From assembly GCA_000004695.1 (NCBI GenBank), contig CM000150.2, positions 3,616,001 through 3,680,000 of the forward strand: a DNA stretch of 64,000 bases. The letters are read 5' to 3'. This stretch comes from Dictyostelium discoideum. Its lineage: Eukaryota. The notes under the pieces were generated by a model. That model was not told the DNA's origin and ran no database searches. It was given only the letters and a program-made list of their open reading frames with translations. The translations under genes were made by a program, and so were the position numbers. This document shows positions 3,101 to 28,256 of this stretch, one piece after another (the stretch's first letter is position 1; the number at the start of each line of letters is the position of its first letter).

Positions 3101-6100
3101 TAGTTTAGCACCATCAACTGCGAAAATCGGAGATACTATTACAATTAATGGTGAAAATCTAGATAAAGACAACTATGATGTTTATTTTAAAATCATTCAA
3201 GATTCATATTCTGAAGTCAAAGCAACAATAACATCAAGAACAGCAAATACTGTAAAAGTAATCGTTCCAAAAGGTTTTGGTGGTGCCTTTGTTCTCACTC
3301 AAAATAGAATCAATAAGTTAATCTCTAATAATCTTGAATTTTCATACCCATCATCAACCATTGTCAAAGTAATTAGTCAACCATTTAGTACAGGTATCAT
3401 CAATAGATTCTTTGTCATTGGTGAATATTATCGTTCATTAATAACCAATATCACCATTTATCCATACATCGATAATATTGAAAAAGAAGCAATTTATTGT
3501 GAAATTGAAAAGTATTGTCCAAGTTCATCAAAAATTCCATCAATTCCAGGATCAGAAGTAGGTCATCCATGTATTGATTCAACAGTTTACTCTGAGAATG
3601 CCCAGTTTTTCAATTATTCCAAGTATGATGTTTTTGTTTGTATCAAATCATCATTAGGTGTTGGAAGTGGTATCATTAAATTCCCATCACAAACATTTAC
3701 ATTCGCATACTCTTATAAAGCACCTCTCTTATATTATGCACCACCTGGCGCTCGTATTCCAACTGATGGTGGTAGTTTTCAATTGAGTGGCAAAAACTTT
3801 CCACCAACACAAGAAATCATTGATCTCGGTTTGAACACATCTAAAATCATTTGGAATAATGATAATTTTGTTACATTCAAAGGAACAAATCTTACAAATA
3901 CCAACATCAATTGGAAGAGTTCAGATACGATTGTATTTATTGCGCCACCAGGTTTTGGTGAGTGGATCACCGTTTCAGTAACTGTCGGTAAACAAGCGTC
4001 AACAACTACATACCCAGGTGATTTAGATGAACGTCCAACTGGAAATTATACTTTGCATTATCTATTTCCAACAATTGTTGATTTATCAGCAGTTCCAACT
4101 GATGGTGGTGAAACTATAATAAAAGGTGCCAACTTTATTCCAGCTATCTTTGTAGGTCAAATTAATAATCAATCATTAATTGGTTCGCTACATTCAGTCA
4201 CGTTTAATAATGTTTTATCTCCATCATGGACATGGATTAACTCAACACACGTAAAAGCCATCGTACAAAAAGGTATTGGTACAATCTCTCCAATGGTAAG
4301 AGTTGGTGGTCAAAGATCAGATTTGTACCAACTTTTTGCAACATTATACAAAAAACCTGAATTAGATAATAAAAAATATGAAAACTTTGCAAATAGTAAT
4401 ATTTTAATAACTGGCTCTAATTTTGTACCAGTTGGTGTTTCAGCAGGTTCATCAAGTTCTGTTAAAATTGGAGGTATTCCTTGTAACTCTGTAACATGGG
4501 TAGATTCAAAATCTGTTATTTGTAATGTACCAATTGGAACTGGTGATAATTTAAATATCCAAGTAACAGTTGGAGATCAACAAACCGAATTAAATGATTA
4601 TTTCTCATATTTAGGGCAATGCGATTTCCTCTGTAGCGATTTATCAAATTTAGTAAGTTTTTAAACATTTTAATTACAGAGAAAAAAAGAAAAAAAAAAC
4701 TAAAAAATACTAATATATTATCATTTTTACCTCAAAGGAATTAGAAAAAGTTATTAGAGAGAATAAAAAAGATTTAAAGAGTACTCTTTTATTAACAGGC
4801 GTATGTTTAGAACAAATCAAGCAATATAATCTTACATATATTAAAAATAAAATTGAATCAAGTTGGATTGGAAATTCAATTATTAATGATTGGACAAGTG
4901 GTAAATTCTATAACTATTTCAAATCATCAGAATCATACTCAACAGTTAAAACACTTGCAAAATATATTACTCCAAAGAATCCATGTATTTATGATAATAA
5001 AAGAGTAAAGAATTCATTAGATTACCTTTTCGAAATCAATTCAGATATTTTCCATTTAATTGAACTTTCAATTTCATCAAAAATCAGTTATCCAGATTCG
5101 CCATATCAAACTTATTTCTATAAATCATCAAGTAACCCACAGTATGGTCTTTCAATTATTACATTTGATTCAGCAATTTGTAGCTTTACAGAATCAACTA
5201 TTCAAGACTACCAAAGTGGAAAAGTATTACAATCATGTTCAATCATTCCAATTATAAATCAAGTAATTAATCCAACAACAACACTTCAAGCACCATATCA
5301 ATATTCACTTACAATTATTGGTAGATTATTTGATAGTTCAACTAGAATATTTTTATCAGGTTATGAATGTCCAATCATTGGTAATATTGTTACAAATCAA
5401 AATGATTATATTCAAACTCTTAGTTGTTCAGTACCATCAGAAATCAAATCATACTCAGCCTCTCCAATTAGTTTTTACAATGGTTATAGTGAAAATAATA
5501 TATATAATTTCTTGTTGGATTTTAAAAAATCATTCTTTTTTATATATCCAATTTCAACAGTAACTCAAATTCAATACCCATCAAGTGGTCCAATTCAAAT
5601 GAATTCTGAAATTAAAGTAATTGGTTTTAATTTCTTCCCATATGGTATTACAAATCCAAACCTTAAAGTTTTTATTGATGATCTTGAATTAACTGATACT
5701 ATCTTTGGATTAACAAGCATAAATGGAGTTGATTCATTTTCATTTATTGCTTCTGGTTTAGGTTCTTTAAAGTATGTAAAAAAAAAAAAAATTAAAAAAA
5801 AAATTAAATTAAATTATTAATATATAAATTTCTTTTTAAAAGTTACATTCAATTATTTTATAGTAATAGTTTACCAATGATTATAAAAAATGGTGTTAAA
5901 TTAGAATTTTCATTTGAAAGACCAATTATTAATAGTATATTACCAACAAATGGAGATTACAATACAAAAGTTACAATTAATGGTAATAATTTTAGAAAAG
6001 GTCAATCAGTAAAAATTGGAGACTTATTAGTAAATGATATTGAATTCATTTCAAATCAAAAGATTATTGTTTCAGCACCATTTGGATTTATTAATGGACT

Positions 6101-9100: not shown

Positions 9101-10352
9101 TCATAATGATCCTAATGGACCAAAAGATACTATAATAGGTATTATCGGAAGTGCAATTGGAGTATCAGTATCAGGAGTCTTGGCTGGATTAATACCAACT
9201 ATTTTCGGTAATGGAACATCAGTAGCCACTACGGCCGCAACAACAAGGGCGGTAGATACAGCGGTAGCGGCAGCAACTACAGCAGCAACAGCAACAGCCA
9301 TTGCCAGTGCAACGATCGAAGGTGTTGCTGTAGTCGTTACAAGGGTATCAGTAATAGCAGCAACAGCAGGTGGTGTTATCGTTACTGCAATTGTAACAGC
9401 AACAGCCATTCTTATTTCAGGTGGAAGTACACCATCACCAACCCCAACCATAACTCCAACCATAACTCCAACCATAACTCCAACTATTTCACCAACTCCA
9501 ACACCAACCGATAACTATTGGGTAAGATGTATGGTCGATTATTCAAGATTAGCTTTACAAGTCGATAATCTTTACGGTCAAGATATAGTATGTATTGATG
9601 GTAATGGAATTTCATCAATTTTCAACGAATCATTCTCTTGTAAACCTGATCTTATTAACGATGGTATGATATGTGCTCAACAACATCAAGATGGAACAAA
9701 TTCAACAACCACATTTGGTAATTCAACATTAATTTGTCATATTGACCCAACAAAATCATGTGAAATTTCACCACCATTCATCATACCATCCGATCCAATT
9801 GAAGATGATGAATATTCAAATATTTTAGAATGTCAATATAATCTCATTGAAAATTCATTATCAACACACTCTAATAATAGTCCATTAAGATGTTATAATA
9901 ATGAAACTGAAAATTACTTCATTATGAATACTACACTTTCATGCTCAAAAGATGAATCATTAAGTCAAGATAAAGATACGATTTCTTGTTTATCAGATAC
10001 AGATGATACTCAAATCTTTTTCTTTAAGAACTCAATTACATGCATTACAGATTATCCATACTATAAATGTACAATGAAATCTCAATCATCACCAGATGAT
10101 AACATAATTCCAGAACCAACATTACCACCAACTCCATCAATTGATGATGATTCCACATGTATTTATGATTCAGCCAATCCATATTCAATAGATCTCCAAC
10201 CAACAACTGGAACTAATGTCAAATGTCCAACAAATGAAAAAGAACTTCATTATGATCTTTCAACTTATCTAACATGCACGGATAATATCACCCATAAAAA
10301 CTCCACCTATTCAATTTCTTACTCAACTTATGTTTGTATTAAAACTAAATAA
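147..10352 (+). CDS. Giant multi-exon gene: signal peptide, 3 N-terminal Cys modules (each ends ..CDP...K(T)KYxCP), about 20 IPT/TIG repeats, GC-rich Ala/Thr/Val-rich hydrophobic segment, (PT)n linker, C-terminal Cys-rich domain (tgr-like IPT/TIG family protein, about 3100 aa)
   Basis: ATG at 147 with a hydrophobic N-terminus (MVKFKIVISFLLFIIYCNCFTFG). Proposed exons: 147-781, 929-1407, 1494-1925, 2021-2075, 2148-4652, 4738-5771, 5864-10352. Donors are GTAAGT at 782, 1408, 1926 and 4653, GTAAGA at 2076, and GTATGT at 5772. Acceptors are T-rich ..AG. Phases are consistent across every junction except inside exon 2. Exon 7 carries the repeated motif ..ITGxNFIP..CNxxxWINSTxxKCKxxxGxGxNxxIxVxVGNQxSNExxxFSY.KP, typical of IPT/TIG domains. 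The stop codon TAA is at 10350-10352. Confidence 0.75.
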
Positions 10353-10495
10353 ATAAAATATAAATAAATATAATCTTTTATCATTAAACGTATGGAAGGA
10401 TCTTCCTTCCTTAAATTTCAATAAATTATTATTTTTTTTTTTTTTTTTTTTATGTTTAGATATTATTTATTTTATATATTTAATATTGTAATCTT

Positions 10496-19911: not shown

Positions 19912-20563
19912 TCAATTCTTTTCAATGGAATATCTAAATAATTAAAATAAAAAAATTTAAATTTAAAAATTAAATGACATAGAATAAAATGTTTGATTTA
20001 CACATTTATATCCCCTATAAGAAATAAACAGTTAATAATAGTTTTGTTTGTGGAATTAATAATAAAATGTAAATTGATTATTGTTTTTTTAATGAAGCAA
20101 TTAAATAAATAAAAAATTGTAATTAATTAAATGAATTTTTGGAAGTTGTTCGAATGTGTAAACTAGTTTTACTTGATTACTTTAACGTTGAGTTGTTGGG
20201 ATGAAAGTGTAACAAGATCTCAAAAAAATATCTTGTTAATACTAATATTTATTTAATTTTATGAAATGTTCTAAACAGAACATTTAAAAATAACTATTAA
20301 TATTGAATTGATAATTCAATATTAATTATTACTAACTTAATTCATTTTAATAAATTGTTTCATTTTATATAATAAACTCACTAAACACAACTAAACAATA
20401 ATTCAAAAATAAATAATAATAATTTAGAATATAGTTTTGTTTCAACATTTTGTTATGACACATACAATTCAGAAAATAATAATAATTTATTTTATTGTTT
20501 TGTTTAAAGGGGTTTTCTCCCGTTGTAATTAAATTTAATTAATTTTAAATTAAATTTAATTTT

Positions 20564-20601
<38 letters not shown>

Positions 20602-20760
20602 TTGAATTTCACAAAAGTTTTCATAACAGATATTAGATACCAGATATTAAAAATGCCACACACAAAATCACCATATAAAATAATAATATAAATTTAAAAA
20701 TAATTTAATTAGAAGAGAAAATAATAATTAAATTAAAATAATATAATATTGTAGTTTAAA

Positions 20761-20905
20761 TTGGATCTAACCCTATCGGCCGAGGTTGGAGTAGTTAATA
20801 GATTTGAGTTCGCTCAAATCTAAGGACTATAAAAGGAAACTAGGTTTCCAATTCAACCTCAGTAGTAAATATATACAAATAATAAAAACACGATAGGGCT
20901 ACGGT
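20761..20905. ncRNA. Candidate structured ncRNA (about 140 nt, four helices) in a GC-richer island
   Basis: Nested complementarities are CCCTATCG (about 20770) with CGATAGGG (about 20894), and GAGGTTG with CAACCTC. Two local hairpins are ATTTGAG-ttcgc-CTCAAAT and GGAAAC-tag-GTTTCC. GC content is well above the flanks. There is no ORF. Confidence 0.25.
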
Positions 20906-21011
20906 CATTAATTAATTTTGTGTACATTTATTTCTAAAATAATTAATCATTTTACTTTAATAATAGAATAAATAAATAATTAAATTTTATTAAATAATTT
21001 ATTTTAAGAGA

Positions 21012-21461
21012 ATGTCAACTAATAATAACGAAGATATTGATAATGATGAATTGCAACAACAGGATAATGAGGAACAACAACAACAACAACAACCACAGGT
21101 ATCAACATTCAATGAACAGCAACGTCAGATAAGGGAACAGCAGCAGGTAATAGATAAACAAAATCAACTTCTTCAACAACACATTCAATTAATAAATCAA
21201 CAATCTCAACTACAATTGAATAATCATACGACACCACCATCATCACCCAACATTACAACACCAATAACTTCAGCAGCAATAACCAACACAATAAAGAAAT
21301 CATTAGGAAAAATTAACACTGATGATACCGACCACCAGTTGTTACAGAAAGTGATAATGATCTTCCACAACAAACCAATTCAAAAAAACAACATTACATT
21401 TATTATCAATGCCCAAAATTACTCGAAGAAAATTTTAATATCTTCAAATTTATATTTTTAA
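21012..21461 (+). CDS. Hypothetical Q-rich, coiled-coil-like small protein (149 aa); could equally be a fragment of a repeat-element ORF
   Basis: The ATG-initiated ORF has a less AT-rich composition than its surroundings. It sits among repeat fragments (20100-22440). I recognised no homolog. Confidence 0.3.
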   Translation: MSTNNNEDIDNDELQQQDNEEQQQQQQPQVSTFNEQQRQIREQQQVIDKQNQLLQQHIQLINQQSQLQLNNHTTPPSSPNITTPITSAAITNTIKKSLGKINTDDTDHQLLQKVIMIFHNKPIQKNNITFIINAQNYSKKILISSNLYF

Positions 21462-22214
21462 ACCAATCCAATTATTTAAAATAAAAAAAATAAAAAATAA
21501 AAAATTTTATACAATTTTTTTAAATAGTTTTTTTTCTTTATTATTTAATTATTATTAAATGTGTTTTGAAATGTAATTCTATTTAAAAATTCTAAAGGTA
21601 ATTGAAGTTTAGGGAATGATATCGTCATCTAATCTGAATGTCATAGTGCATAGATAAATCTTTCTTTTCTCTGACATAAGATTAATATGATCATTTTTAT
21701 TTTCCTTTGAGTGATAGTATTGATATGAACATTAACTTTTCTAAATGATATAGTGCATAGATAAATCTTTCCTTTCTCTACCATTTGATTGTGTTATGAT
21801 TCATCTCAAATTACTTAATTTTCTTTTAAAGTAACCACTTATAAATTCCTTTTTCTATATTTTTAATTGATAAATTAGATTATTTATTTATTATTATTTT
21901 TTTATTTATTTTCAATTTCTTACTTTTGTTTCTCTTTTATTCCATCTTAAATCATTTTATTTCTTTGTTTTTGAAATAATACTATTTCATTTTATTTGAT
22001 TTAATTTTTTGGTTTTTTGGAATGAAAAAAAAAAAAAAAAAAAAGATCAATTTATACTCTTATAATTTTTTATTATTCCTATTTAATATTTATTAGATTT
22101 TTCCTAAAAAGCAATTTTTACTTTTTTTTTCCTTTTTTTTTAATTGATCAAAAAAATTTCTAAATTGGAACTTATTAGATAATAAAAAATGGTTAAATAT
22201 TGAAATTTATTTAA

Positions 22215-23053: not shown

Positions 23054-25360
23054 CTATGACCTTTTGTTCGAATTTTGGCTCTGGTTGCTTTCATCAGTGT
23101 TGAACAATTTGTGACAGATTATCTTCCATAATTGGTGTGCTATTATTCCTATGAGATTGGGGAAGATTCTCTCAGTTCTGTTGTATTTTGATATGTCTAA
23201 GGTATCCATTGACCATCTGTGGATTTTGATGAATGATAATTTGTTAACTGTTGATATGATGGTTTTTTCAATATCTAGGATATCTTGGCATAGAGTGAAG
23301 AGGTGAGAATAAGGGTCTCTGAATAGGTGGCCACAGATCTTGCATCTGGTGTCTCTTTCGTGGTTGATACCTGGAAGTGATCTTGAGAAGAATCTGAAGA
23401 GGGTGTTTCTACCTTTTTGGTGAGAAATGCTGTTGATGTTTATGAATACTTTGGGTATTGCTGTGTTGTATCTCACCGCCCATAACTTCTGCCATTCTGT
23501 TCTTCTTGGTGTTGGGTGTCTGTCTTTGATCATGAGTTCGTAAATTTCTTTCAGTTTTAGTGGTTCATCATTGTCGTTTCTTATACAGTCTGGAAGTTCA
23601 TTTATCTTTGGATGGTTTTGGTAAAATTTGACTCTGAATACACCCCAGTGTCTGCACATATCGTTGAGGGTTGAAGTGTGGGCTTTTTTTCTACTTAATT
23701 GCTCCATGTACCATTCTTGTAAGGTATTGTTGTTGTTGTTGTAGTTGTTATGGAGTAGCCTGTTCATGTACCAGATTTTGAATGCTATATGTCTTAGTTC
23801 TATATCCCATAATTTTATGCCTCCTTCTTTCCAATCTGCATATGCTCTGTCTATTTTCATCATAGTTTTGTATTTTCTCTCTTCTGTATATGTATTCTTA
23901 ACTGAGGAGAATAAGAACCATCTGGTCATGTTATTGATTTCCTCAATTTGTTCTTCATTTAGATTATCCATGTATTGATGGTATGTTAATTTGGATAGAA
24001 CGTATGTTTTGAGAATTGTCATCTTTGCCTTCATCGTTATTGCTTGTGATTTCCATTTGATTAGATTGTTTTTCATTTCTTGGATTAAAGTGTTGTATTT
24101 TGAATTTAAACCTGTTTTGGTGAAATTGAGGCCAAGATATCTTTCTGGGACTGTAATCTCTTGGAATGGTAGATCGTGTGGTTTATCTCCTATTGCTATC
24201 ATTACTGTTTTCTCTTTGTTTAACGATGATGATGTTGCTGAGCAGTACTTTTGGATTTTAGTATTAATTTTCATTAGTTCTTCTGTGGAGTTTGTAAAGG
24301 TTGCTATGTCGTCAGCAAATGCAGTGAGTTTTCATGATTTGGAATTTGGTAGAGTGAAGCCTTTGATTGTATTATCATTGATGATATCTATTAGAAGTGG
24401 TTCTAAAACTAGAGCAAAGATTGTTGGTGATATTGGGTCTCCTTGTTTTGTTCCTCTTCTGATTGTTATTCCATTGACTAAAAAGTCGTTGATCTTTATT
24501 TTGTTTTTAGTATCTTTGAGTAGGTTTAGTAGGATCGCTGTGAATTTTGGGGGGATACCAATATGCTCTAATGTTCTTGTGATACTCTTGTGGCTGATTG
24601 AATCGAATGCTTTGTTAAAATCGTAAAAGGTAATGAGTGTATTGTTCTTTCTTTTGTTACTTATTTCTATTACTTCCTTCATGATCTGAATATTGTCTTG
24701 GATGAACCTGTTTGGAACAAAGCCTTTTTGAAATTTGTTGATAATTTTACTGGTGATATCTAATAATCTACTGTTGAGAATTTTGCTTAAAATTTTGTAA
24801 TCTGTATTGAGAAGGGTGATTGGTCTTCTATTTGAAATGTTTAGTTCATCTCCTTTTTTGAATATTGTTGTTATTACTCCTTCTTTGAATTTTGTGGGGA
24901 TTTCTTTCTTATTTGTGAGGAGGTCGTTGAAAGCTATAGTCAATATTCTTGCTATTGAGTTGATGTGGTACTTGTAGAATAGTGCATTGATACCGTCTAA
25001 ACCTGGAGATTTGTGGATACTTGAAGTTTTGATTGCTTTGGTCACTTCATGTATTCTCATCGGTCTGTCTATCTCGAGTTTCTTGATTAAATCAACGTCT
25101 ACTTCCCATTTTTCTAATAACTTCTTGTGGGTTTCTTCGTTATCTTCTTTCTCTTCATAGAATTCAACAAATCTTTTTGCTATGTTCTCTTTATCTGATA
25201 TGGTCTTATTATCTTTATCTTTTATTTGGAATATTGATTTATCTTTGGCTCTGGATTTAAGGATACTTGTGAGGTATTTGCTTGGTGTTTCTTGATGCAG
25301 GTGGAGTTTTAATTTGATATCCCATGCTTTTACCTTTTTAAAAAAAAAAACTCCAATCAT
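23054..25360 (-). pseudogene. Retroelement ORF2 reverse-transcriptase region, 5'-truncated and frameshifted between 24274 and 24332
   Basis: Two adjacent minus-strand ORFs (24332-25360 and 23054-24274) lie in different frames. The first has RT motifs (FYDFNKAFD; QGDPISP). The second has a CKICGH..C zinc-finger-like tail. Confidence 0.65.
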
Positions 25361-28180: not shown

Positions 28181-28185
28181 AAAAA
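28181..28185 (-). terminator. Pol III oligo(T) terminator of tRNA-Thr
   Basis: TTTTT lies immediately 3' of the tRNA on the minus strand (plus-strand AAAAA at 28181-28185). Confidence 0.7.
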
Positions 28186-28256
28186 GGCTCCTATGAGGAT
28201 CGAACTCATGACCTCTTCCTTACTAGGGAAGCGCAATACCACTATGCTAAGGAGCC
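28185..28256 (-). tRNA. tRNA-Thr (anticodon AGU)
   Basis: The minus-strand sequence GGCTCCTTAGCATAGTGGTATTGCGCTTCCCTAGTAAGGAAGAGGTCATGAGTTCGATCCTCATAGGAGCC folds as a cloverleaf. The acceptor stem is a perfect 7 bp. The anticodon stem CTTCC/GGAAG closes a loop CUAGUAA, so the anticodon is AGU with U33 and A37. The T arm is ATGAG-TTCGATC-CTCAT. The variable loop is 5 nt. Confidence 0.85.

What the first reader, a model, noticed from the sequence alone, without database searches (positions are those of the whole stretch)
20761..20905. Four-helix GC-rich element: possible structured ncRNA or transposon terminal module
Perfect nested complementarity builds a closed multi-helix structure from an 8-bp closing stem, a 7-bp internal stem, and two 6-7-bp hairpins. 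This is very unlike the surrounding AT-rich spacer. It is flanked by palindromes (20240-20330) and by a duplicated 28-bp motif at 21645/21751, so it may also be part of a decayed transposon end.
Basis: seen in the sequence. Interest (0 to 1): 0.5.

Follow-up and report, generated by a model that had tools for sequence, protein, structure and literature searches.

The report
Structured module inside a small transposon
The GC-rich four-helix element is real, but it is not a stand-alone RNA gene: it is a conserved internal piece of a 1.1-kb multicopy mobile element of Dictyostelium discoideum, most likely folding in that element's own transcript.

Summary
The fold is real. Window 20771-20898 forms four nested helices (RNA z = -6.4; 0 of 200 shuffles fold as well) in an island of 36% G+C between flanks of 12-17%. 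No Rfam family matches.

It is not a single-copy gene. It lies at positions 558-698 of a 1,139-bp mobile element, window 20208-21346. The ends are TGTAACAA...TTGTTACA, flanked here by a 5-bp target-site duplication, GAAAG. Four more copies were recovered from a D. discoideum assembly. Every copy with both ends intact has its own perfect 5-bp duplication (AGTTT, AATTG, CATAT).

TGT...ACA ends plus 5-bp duplications indicate integrase-type insertion. That fits a non-autonomous relative of the Tdd-4/Tdd-5 (Ginger2) transposons or, less likely, a solo LTR.

The module sits about 110 nt upstream of an element-borne ORF that runs open through the right end. All five copies keep the fold, and the + strand, the sense strand of the ORF, folds better in four of them. 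Covariation is not significant, and each copy carries private pair-breaking changes.

Best reading: an RNA structure in the leader of the element's sense transcript. This step is inferred. Signals for a stand-alone small-RNA gene (DUSE, B box, T-run terminator) are absent or not conserved. Modest interest.

The parts
20203..20207 (.). Left copy of the 5-bp target-site duplication, GAAAG
   Evidence: Identical pentamer at 21347-21351. Three other copies have their own perfect pentamers: AGTTT, AATTG, CATAT.
20208..21346 (+). Complete 1,139-bp mobile element (non-autonomous, integrase-type ends)
   Evidence: The same unit is found at L002:9164-10326, L004:5234-6190, L005:3717-4911 and, rearranged, at L005:9441-10489. 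Boundaries are shared between copies.
20208..20215 (+). Left terminal inverted repeat, TGTAACAA (TGTNR-type end)
   Evidence: The complementary TTGTTACA is at 21339-21346.
20210..20325 (.). Left-arm palindromes: 20210-18/20230-38, 20264-72/20277-85, 20297-309/20313-25
   Evidence: The left arm is the least substituted part of the unit, 1.1-2.8% against the window copy.
20565..20596 (+). A32 tract, present in all copies
20657..20681 (+). CA-rich stretch CACACACAAAATCACCA followed by TATAAAAT; a possible promoter for the sense transcript (inferred only)
   Evidence: Sequence conserved in all copies. Its function was not tested.
20771..20898 (+). Four-helix structured module (P1-P4), the finding itself
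   Evidence: The same fold is the MFE in all five copies. The + strand is more stable in 4 of 5 copies and in the consensus.
21012..21346 (+). Element-borne ORF (111 codons inside the unit) that runs open through the right terminus; it stops only at 21461, in flanking DNA
   Evidence: Indels between complete copies are in frame. pN/pS is 0.17-0.60. No significant Pfam domain.
21339..21346 (+). Right terminal inverted repeat, TTGTTACA
21347..21351 (.). Right copy of the target-site duplication, GAAAG

Best explanation
The 145-nt element is an internal, family-wide module of a 1,139-bp non-autonomous mobile element (window 20208-21346). The element is inserted by an integrase-type (DDE) enzyme, as shown by TGTAA...TTACA ends and 5-bp target-site duplications. 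This much is shown.

Inferred: the module acts as an RNA structure of + polarity in the 5' leader of the element's own sense transcript. That transcript carries the ORF starting 107-113 nt downstream, at 21012. There the structure would influence stability, translation or protein binding of the transcript.

The master copy had a perfect fold. Individual genomic copies, including this one, are slowly accumulating private pair-breaking mutations.
For: Mobile element:
- Five copies, each inside the same unit, with shared left and right boundaries.
- Perfect 5-bp duplications at 4 of 4 copies that have both ends.
- TDD-4/TDD-5 of D. discoideum give 5-bp duplications, and Ginger2 termini follow TGTNR (PMC2836005).

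Structure:
- z = -6.4.
- The same four helices are the MFE in every copy, and in a 330-nt context.
- 96.6% of pair cells are standard pairs across copies.
- The consensus has a continuous 12-bp P2.

Polarity:
- Five G-U pairs on the + strand are invariant in all copies. They would be A-C mismatches on the minus strand.
- The + strand is more stable in 4 of 5 copies and in the consensus, -48.3 against -44.0 kcal/mol.
- The outer pair of P4 runs G-C, G-U, A-U across copies.

Sense transcript:
- The ORF downstream is open to the terminus in all three full copies.
- Its indels are in frame and pN/pS is below 1.
Against: - No expression data could be consulted, so the transcript, its start site and the RNA fold are all inferred.
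- Covariation is not significant: 2 double changes, and 102 of 500 shuffles do as well.
- Variable sites are depleted in paired columns only when counted by column (p = 0.04). Counted by event the depletion disappears (p = 0.40).
- The substitution rate in the core (5-9%) is not lower than in the left arm (1-3%) or the ORF (2-3%).
- The fold is nearly as good on the minus strand and as DNA.
- A hairpin-loop inversion in one copy shows that P3 also behaves as a DNA palindrome.
- No autonomous partner sharing the termini was identified.
Confidence: 0.55

Rival explanations
1. The carrier is a solo LTR of an extinct or uncatalogued LTR retrotransposon rather than a cut-and-paste transposon. The module would then be an R/U5-type leader structure. 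The stop-less ORF would be the start of gag, as in Ty1, where TYA begins inside the LTR (own knowledge).
For: - TG...CA ends with only an 8-bp inverted repeat, plus 5-bp duplications, are typical of Ty3/gypsy LTRs.
- DGLT-A solo LTRs ('H3R') exist in this genome (PMC5006619).
- TDD-4/5 have long inverted repeats of 260-297 bp (PMC2836005), unlike this unit.
- The ORF runs out of the unit without a stop codon.
Against: - The known D. discoideum LTRs are 208-390 bp, not 1,139 bp.
- None of the five copies is paired with a second copy around a gag-pol interior.
- The two copies in L005 are not an LTR pair, because the first has its own CATAT duplication on both sides.
- No longer protein shares the ORF's N-terminus in the protein collection.
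Confidence: 0.22
2. The module is a small-RNA gene riding on the transposon. It would be transcribed on its own, for example by RNA polymerase III from internal A/B-box-like sequences. In this reading the mobile element spreads an RNA gene.
For: - GGCYGAGGTTGG resembles a tRNA A box, and GAGTTCGCTC resembles a B box (sequence; resemblance judged from own knowledge of the consensus).
- The fold is compact, with 5' and 3' ends paired.
- A T4 run follows at 20916-20919.
Against: - The B-box-like loop is TCTG in one copy and CGAA in another.
- The T4 run is absent in three of the five copies.
- There is no DUSE in the unit on either strand.
- ARAGORN finds no tRNA-like gene there, and Rfam finds nothing.
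- No TRE retrotransposon, which targets Pol III genes, is inserted next to any copy.
Confidence: 0.1
3. The complementarity works at the DNA level. It could provide palindromic protein-binding sites, or hairpins or a cruciform used in transposition or replication. No RNA role is involved.
For: - The fold is also far better than chance with DNA parameters (z = -5.7), and on the minus strand.
- P3 and P4 are perfect palindromes.
- One copy has the P3 loop exactly inverted (TTCG to CGAA), a signature of DNA hairpin or template-switch events.
- The left arm carries three more palindromes.
Against: - Local palindromes do not explain the long-range nested pairs: P1 across 112 nt and P2 across 61 nt.
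- Five invariant G-T oppositions all favour one strand.
- DDE integrase-type transposition is not known to need internal hairpins (own knowledge).
Confidence: 0.1
4. The module is a relic with no present function. It could be a fragment captured from another gene or element that happens to fold well and is simply copied along with the transposon.
For: - The core shows no excess conservation over the rest of the unit.
- Covariation is not significant.
- Each copy carries private pair-breaking changes.
Against: - Four perfectly nested helices with z = -6.4 are unlikely to arise or persist in the master copy without constraint in a genome under strong AT pressure.
- No donor sequence was found in Rfam or in the viral, prokaryotic or metagenome collections.
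Confidence: 0.12

Closest known systems
Tdd-4 / Tdd-5 (Ginger2/TDD superfamily) DNA transposons of D. discoideum
   Same: - 5-bp target-site duplications and TGTNR...CA termini (PMC2836005).
- The same host genome.
- A Tdd-4-like transposase gene (rve domain plus SPXX repeats) lies 8.6 kb from one copy.
   Different: - The inverted repeat is only 8 bp, against 260-297 bp in that paper's table.
- There is no transposase gene.
- The unit is 1.1 kb against 3.8 kb.
- No similarity to the Tdd-4-like sequence in L002 beyond TGTA.
- Whether Tdd transposase mobilises it is untested.
Solo LTRs of Ty3/gypsy elements in Dictyostelium (DGLT-A 'H3R', Skipper)
   Same: - TG...CA ends with a short inverted repeat.
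- 5-bp duplications.
- Stand-alone units scattered in the genome (PMC5006619).
   Different: - Three to five times longer than any known D. discoideum LTR.
- Not next to tRNA genes; the nearest tRNA is 7.3 kb away.
- No full-length partner seen.
thug-S, a multicopy D. discoideum DNA transposon that hosts miRNA hairpins
   Same: A small multicopy element carrying an ORF and RNA hairpins (PMC4894637, PMC6161686).
   Different: - It is a different sequence. The published thug-S miRNA matches L002:1951-3890, not the unit.
- The helices here (6-12 bp) are too short for Dicer substrates.
Structured 5' leaders of retroelement and transposon transcripts (for example TAR-like R-region stems)
   Same: A stable multi-helix RNA placed between the presumed promoter and the element's first ORF, on the sense strand (analogy from own knowledge).
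   Different: No sequence or structural homology. The function here is inferred, not shown.
Dictyostelium Class I RNAs and other DUSE-driven small ncRNA genes
   Same: A G+C-richer island in AT-rich spacer, with 5' and 3' ends paired in a stem.
   Different: - About 130 nt, against 42-65 nt (size from own recall of the Class I RNA papers listed, which were not read here).
- No DUSE.
- Embedded in a transposon.
- No Rfam match.

Membership tests
Ginger2/TDD-type DNA transposon (non-autonomous member) | Termini follow TGTNR...CA | tested here: met
   TGTAACAA...TTGTTACA in all copies. Criterion from PMC2836005.
Ginger2/TDD-type DNA transposon (non-autonomous member) | 5-bp target-site duplication, as for TDD-4/TDD-5 | tested here: met
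   GAAAG, AGTTT, AATTG, CATAT: perfect in 4 of 4 copies with both ends.
Ginger2/TDD-type DNA transposon (non-autonomous member) | Long terminal inverted repeats (about 50-300 bp) | tested here: not met
   The ends are complementary for 8 bp only.
Ginger2/TDD-type DNA transposon (non-autonomous member) | Termini shared with an autonomous element that encodes an integrase-like transposase | tested here: inconclusive
   - A Tdd-4-like gene is present in L002:1-549.
- Its element end could only be guessed (about L002:1553...CCCTACA), and it shares only TGTA with the unit.
- Full Tdd-4/5 and DDT sequences could not be fetched.
Solo LTR of an LTR retrotransposon | TG...CA ends, short inverted repeat, 4-6-bp duplication | tested here: met
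Solo LTR of an LTR retrotransposon | Full-length relatives exist: two direct LTRs flanking gag-pol | tested here: not met
   - None among the five copies.
- The two units in L005 are independent insertions.
- Known D. discoideum LTRs are 208-390 bp.
- Only 5 copies could be examined.
Named D. discoideum complex repeats (DDT-A/B/S, thug-S/T, Tdd-4/5) | Sequence match to the published consensus | not testable with these tools
   - No Dictyostelium repeat library or genome-wide DNA search was available, and the 2001 catalogue paper is not held.
- thug-S is excluded indirectly through its miRNA.
- The AX4 annotation lists one copy's ORF as an ordinary hypothetical protein, DDB_G0271474.
Any curated RNA family (Rfam 15) | Covariance-model score at or above the gathering threshold | tested here: not met
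   - The only hit in the window is tRNA-Thr at 28185-28256.
- Permissive scans of this copy and of a near-consensus copy give only noise, E = 2.6-9.8.
DUSE-dependent Dictyostelium ncRNA gene (Class I RNA, snRNA, snoRNA) | [AT]CCCA[CT]AA about 60 nt upstream of the RNA start | tested here: not met
   No match on either strand anywhere in 20208-21346. The motif consensus is from own recall; the DUSE literature appears in the hit list.
RNA polymerase III type-2 gene (tRNA-like, SINE-like, vault-like) | Conserved A and B boxes and an oligo-T terminator | tested here: not met
   - The A-box-like stretch is conserved.
- The B-box-like loop varies (TTCG, TCTG, CGAA).
- The T4 run is missing in 3 of 5 copies.
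- ARAGORN is negative.
   - The nearest tRNA is 7.3 kb away.
- The unit has inverted TG...CA ends and 5-bp duplications.
- TRE target distances are from PMC5006619.

The most novel reading that the evidence does not exclude
The unit is a so far uncatalogued integrase-type mobile element of D. discoideum that carries two things.

- A functional structured RNA, acting either as a leader riboregulator or as a small RNA of its own.
- A stop-less ORF under purifying selection. This ORF reads out through the terminus, so each insertion creates a new chimeric 'host' protein. At least four such ORFs are already annotated as hypothetical proteins.

The four-helix RNA would then be a new, transposon-borne RNA family.
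Probability: 0.2. Interest if true: 0.45.

Novelty: new member of a known kind. Interest (0 to 1): 0.25.

Why it matters
It removes a candidate from the list of possible new ncRNA genes. The G+C-rich folded island is cargo of a mobile element.

It also flags a small element family whose ORFs are annotated as ordinary hypothetical genes in D. discoideum assemblies, for example DDB_G0271474. This matters for gene counts and for repeat masking.

If the fold proves functional, it would be one of very few cis-acting RNA structures described in amoebozoan transposons. It would also be a convenient handle on how small integrase-type elements control their own expression in a gene-dense haploid genome.

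Tried and rejected
- **Rfam.** Scans at gathering and permissive thresholds, on this copy and on a near-consensus copy, found nothing.

- **Literature search by sequence.** Strings from the core gave no paper. The AX4 gene and protein identifiers also gave none.

- **Small-RNA gene signals.** The DUSE motif, the A/B boxes and a T-run terminator are absent or not conserved.

- **Ribozyme and guide-RNA ideas, by eye.** A hammerhead core is ruled out: CUGAGGU lacks A9, and the junction strands are 0, 4 and 2 nt. HDV-like topology is ruled out because there is no pseudoknot arrangement. A Fanzor/TnpB guide RNA is ruled out because the module is not at an element end. There is also no Fanzor ORF, and Fanzor is reported in other dictyostelids, not in D. 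discoideum.

- **thug-S identity.** Rejected, because the published thug-S miRNA maps elsewhere, at L002:1951-3890.

- **Known solo LTR.** Rejected on length.

- **'Core is more conserved than its flanks'.** This first impression came from BLAST identities. It was an artefact of indels in the AT-rich flanks. Counted by substitutions, the core is not more conserved.

- **Covariation as proof of an RNA.** Not significant with five near-identical copies.

- **Intron loss in the L004 copy.** The deletion is 163 nt, while the GT...AG segment is 160 nt and has 31% G+C. That is too G+C-rich for a Dictyostelium intron, so it was treated as an ordinary deletion.

- **More copies or relatives.** These searches found nothing new:
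  - the protein clusters are singletons;
  - a covariance model over the 118 kb held finds only the five copies;
  - exact-pattern scans of the metagenome, viral and prokaryotic collections give 0 hits.

- **Fetching a full Tdd-4 element to compare termini.** This failed.

- **Naming the element from papers.** The catalogue papers are not held.

Full report
**Origin of the window.** The window is nuclear DNA of Dictyostelium discoideum. The ORF at 21012-21461 is found, with exactly the same product, on a 3.2-Mb contig of assembly GCA_054883475.1. The base composition is the 20-25% G+C typical of this genome.

- Window 20771-20898 forms four nested helices. P1 has 8 bp. P2 has 9 bp plus 2 further pairs. 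P3 has 6 + 10 bp around a 2x2 internal loop, with a TTCG loop. P4 has 6 bp. A 27-nt A/T-rich strand lies between P2 and the 3' half of P1.
- The RNA minimum free energy is -46.4 kcal/mol, against -25.2 +/- 3.3 for dinucleotide-preserving shuffles (z = -6.4, none of 200 as good).
- The reverse strand (z = -7.0) and DNA parameters (z = -5.7) also fold far better than chance.
- The core has 36% G+C, between stretches of 17% and 12%.
- The fold stays the minimum-energy structure when 330 nt of context are folded together.

**It matches no known RNA family.**
- Rfam finds only tRNA-Thr at 28185-28256 in the whole window.
- Permissive scans give only noise, both for this region and for a near-consensus copy.
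- ARAGORN finds no tRNA-like gene here.
- The Dictyostelium upstream sequence element [AT]CCCA[CT]AA is absent from the whole region on both strands.
- Strings from the core occur in no paper of the library.

**The sequence is not unique.**
- Homologues of the neighbouring 149-aa ORF led to other loci of the same assembly. Each contains the module at 90-96% identity.
- In every case the module sits in the same larger unit. A five-way alignment with flanks shows sharp, shared boundaries.
- The unit begins TGTAACAAGATC and ends CCAGTTGTTACA, an 8-bp terminal inverted repeat.
- In the window it spans 20208-21346 (1,139 bp) and is flanked by GAAAG on both sides.
- The copy in L002 is flanked by AGTTT. 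The copy in L004 is flanked by AATTG, and the first copy in L005 by CATAT.
- Four of four copies with both ends present therefore have a perfect 5-bp target-site duplication of different sequence. These are independent insertions of a mobile element, not a segmental duplication.
- A fifth copy (L005:9441-10489) is truncated on the left and joined to an inverted right end.

**What kind of element it is.**
- TG...CA ends of the TGTNR type and 5-bp duplications point to integrase-type DDE enzymes.
[quoted passage not shown] It also describes Ty3/gypsy LTRs.
- The known D. discoideum LTRs measure 208-390 bp (PMC5006619), and no paired copy around a gag-pol interior was seen. The best reading is therefore a non-autonomous cut-and-paste element.
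- An uncatalogued solo LTR remains a real alternative, because the inverted repeat is only 8 bp whereas TDD-4/5 have 260-297 bp.
- The unit is not thug-S. The published thug-S-derived miRNA (PMC4894637) matches L002:1951-3890 but not the unit.
- Whether the unit equals another catalogued repeat (DDT-S, thug-T) could not be tested, since neither a Dictyostelium repeat library nor the 2001 catalogue paper was available.
- AX4 annotates the ORF of one copy as an ordinary hypothetical protein, DDB_G0271474.

**Anatomy of the unit, in window coordinates.**
- Left arm, 20208-20564: three palindromes. It is the least substituted part, 1-3%.
- A32 tract, 20565-20596.
- A CA-rich stretch and TATAAAAT, 20657-20681.
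- The four-helix module, 20771-20898.
- From 21012, an ORF that stays open through the right terminus in all three full-length copies. Differences between copies are in-frame indels only, and pN/pS is 0.17-0.60.
- The ORF has no significant Pfam domain, and no longer relative exists in the protein collection.
- The module is thus internal, at positions 558-698 of 1,139, not terminal.

**Is the fold selected?**
- All five copies keep it: 96.6% of pair cells are standard pairs, and 42 of 47 pairs are invariant.
- The family consensus is better than the window copy. In the consensus P2 is a continuous 12-bp helix, and the window has a private T-to-C change at 20781 that creates a C-A mismatch.
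- Two pairs change on both sides. The base of P3 is C-G in three copies, U-A in the window, and C-A in L002. The outer pair of P4 is G-C, G-U or A-U.
- This is not significant: 102 of 500 shuffles do as well.
- Variable columns are rarer among paired positions (7 of 84) than among unpaired ones (12 of 57; p = 0.04). Counted as mutational events the difference vanishes (p = 0.40).
- Substitution rates in the core are not lower than in the rest of the unit. An early impression to the contrary came from indels in the AT-rich flanks.
- The picture is the usual one for a transposon. The master copy had a perfect structure, and the inserted copies decay neutrally.

**Which strand folds?**
- Five G-U pairs, invariant in all copies, exist only on the + strand.
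- The + strand is more stable than the minus strand in four of five copies and in the consensus, -48.3 against -44.0 kcal/mol. The window copy is the exception because of its private changes.
- The + strand is the sense strand of the ORF. This fits an RNA structure in the leader of the element's own transcript, which is my preferred mechanism. The step is inferred, since no expression data could be consulted.
- Against a pure RNA view, one copy has the P3 loop exactly inverted (TTCG to CGAA). That is a DNA-level palindrome event.

**Alternatives considered.**
- An independent host ncRNA gene is excluded by the multicopy, transposon-embedded context.
- A Pol III-type RNA gene riding on the element is unlikely. 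The B-box-like loop and the T4 run are not conserved, and no tRNA-gene-targeting retrotransposon sits next to any copy.
- DNA-level palindromes do not explain the long-range nested pairs.
- A functionless relic cannot be excluded.
- By eye, a hammerhead, an HDV-like ribozyme and a Fanzor guide RNA were rejected on core sequence, topology and position (for Fanzor).

**Searches elsewhere.**
- A covariance model built from the five copies finds nothing further in the 118 kb held.
- Exact-pattern scans of the metagenome, viral and prokaryotic collections return nothing.
- No dictyostelid genome could be searched at the DNA level with these tools. This is the main limitation.

**Verdict.**
- The element is a new member of a known kind of mobile element, or possibly an already catalogued repeat that I could not name.
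- The structured module is of modest interest until expression or cross-species conservation is shown.

Noticed in passing
L005:9707-9844 (same as L003:5707-5844): In this rearranged copy the P3 tetraloop is exactly reverse-complemented (TTCG to CGAA) while the 10-bp stem is unchanged. This is a hairpin-loop inversion, typical of template switching at DNA palindromes.
   Followed up: partly
window 21012-21461; L002:10001-10432; L004:6001-6452; L005:4562-4930: The element's ORF has no stop codon inside the element, so each copy reads on into different flanking DNA. These chimeric ORFs are annotated as hypothetical proteins, including AX4 DDB_G0271474, which is the L004 copy. pN/pS between copies is below 1.
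   Followed up: partly
L004:6135-6150 against window 21144-21306: The L004 copy lacks 163 nt. The missing segment nearly coincides with a GT...AG-bounded stretch of 160 nt. It looks like intron loss, but that stretch has 31% G+C and the lengths differ by one CAG, so it is probably an ordinary deletion.
   Followed up: partly
L002:1934-2050 and 3724-3906: Repeated hairpin units match the published thug-S-derived miRNA pair (miRNA_can_D3 of PMC4894637) with 1-2 mismatches, in inverted orientation around a 178-aa ORF. This is presumably a thug-S copy.
   Followed up: partly
L002:1-549: This is the C-terminus of a 617-aa protein with an rve (integrase) hit and a long run of SPXX repeats. That matches the description of the Tdd-4 transposase (own recall). 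It lies 8.6 kb from a copy of the element.
   Followed up: partly
window 23054-25360 and 28185-28256: Reverse-transcriptase-type ORFs lie on the minus strand, downstream of a minus-strand tRNA-Thr(AGU) gene. This arrangement is expected for a TRE3-type retrotransposon, and it is unrelated to the finding.
   Followed up: no
It lies outside the mobile element, and its nature is unknown.
   Followed up: partly
window 10290-10450: An exact DUSE consensus, ACCCATAA, is followed about 100 nt later by a short G+C hairpin (GGAAGGATCTTCC) and a T20 run. It could be a small ncRNA gene, or it could be chance. Rfam reports nothing there.
   Followed up: no
window 20565-20596: An uninterrupted A32 tract inside the element is kept in all five copies at 26-37 A. 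On the minus strand it is a T-run of the kind that precedes Dictyostelium transcription starts (PMC6161686), so an outward minus-strand promoter is conceivable.
   Followed up: no
window 20208-21346 against L001:2201-3335: The same insertion in GCA_054883475.1 is 99.65% identical and 4 nt shorter. The window therefore comes from a different assembly or strain, and the insertion is shared between them.
   Followed up: no
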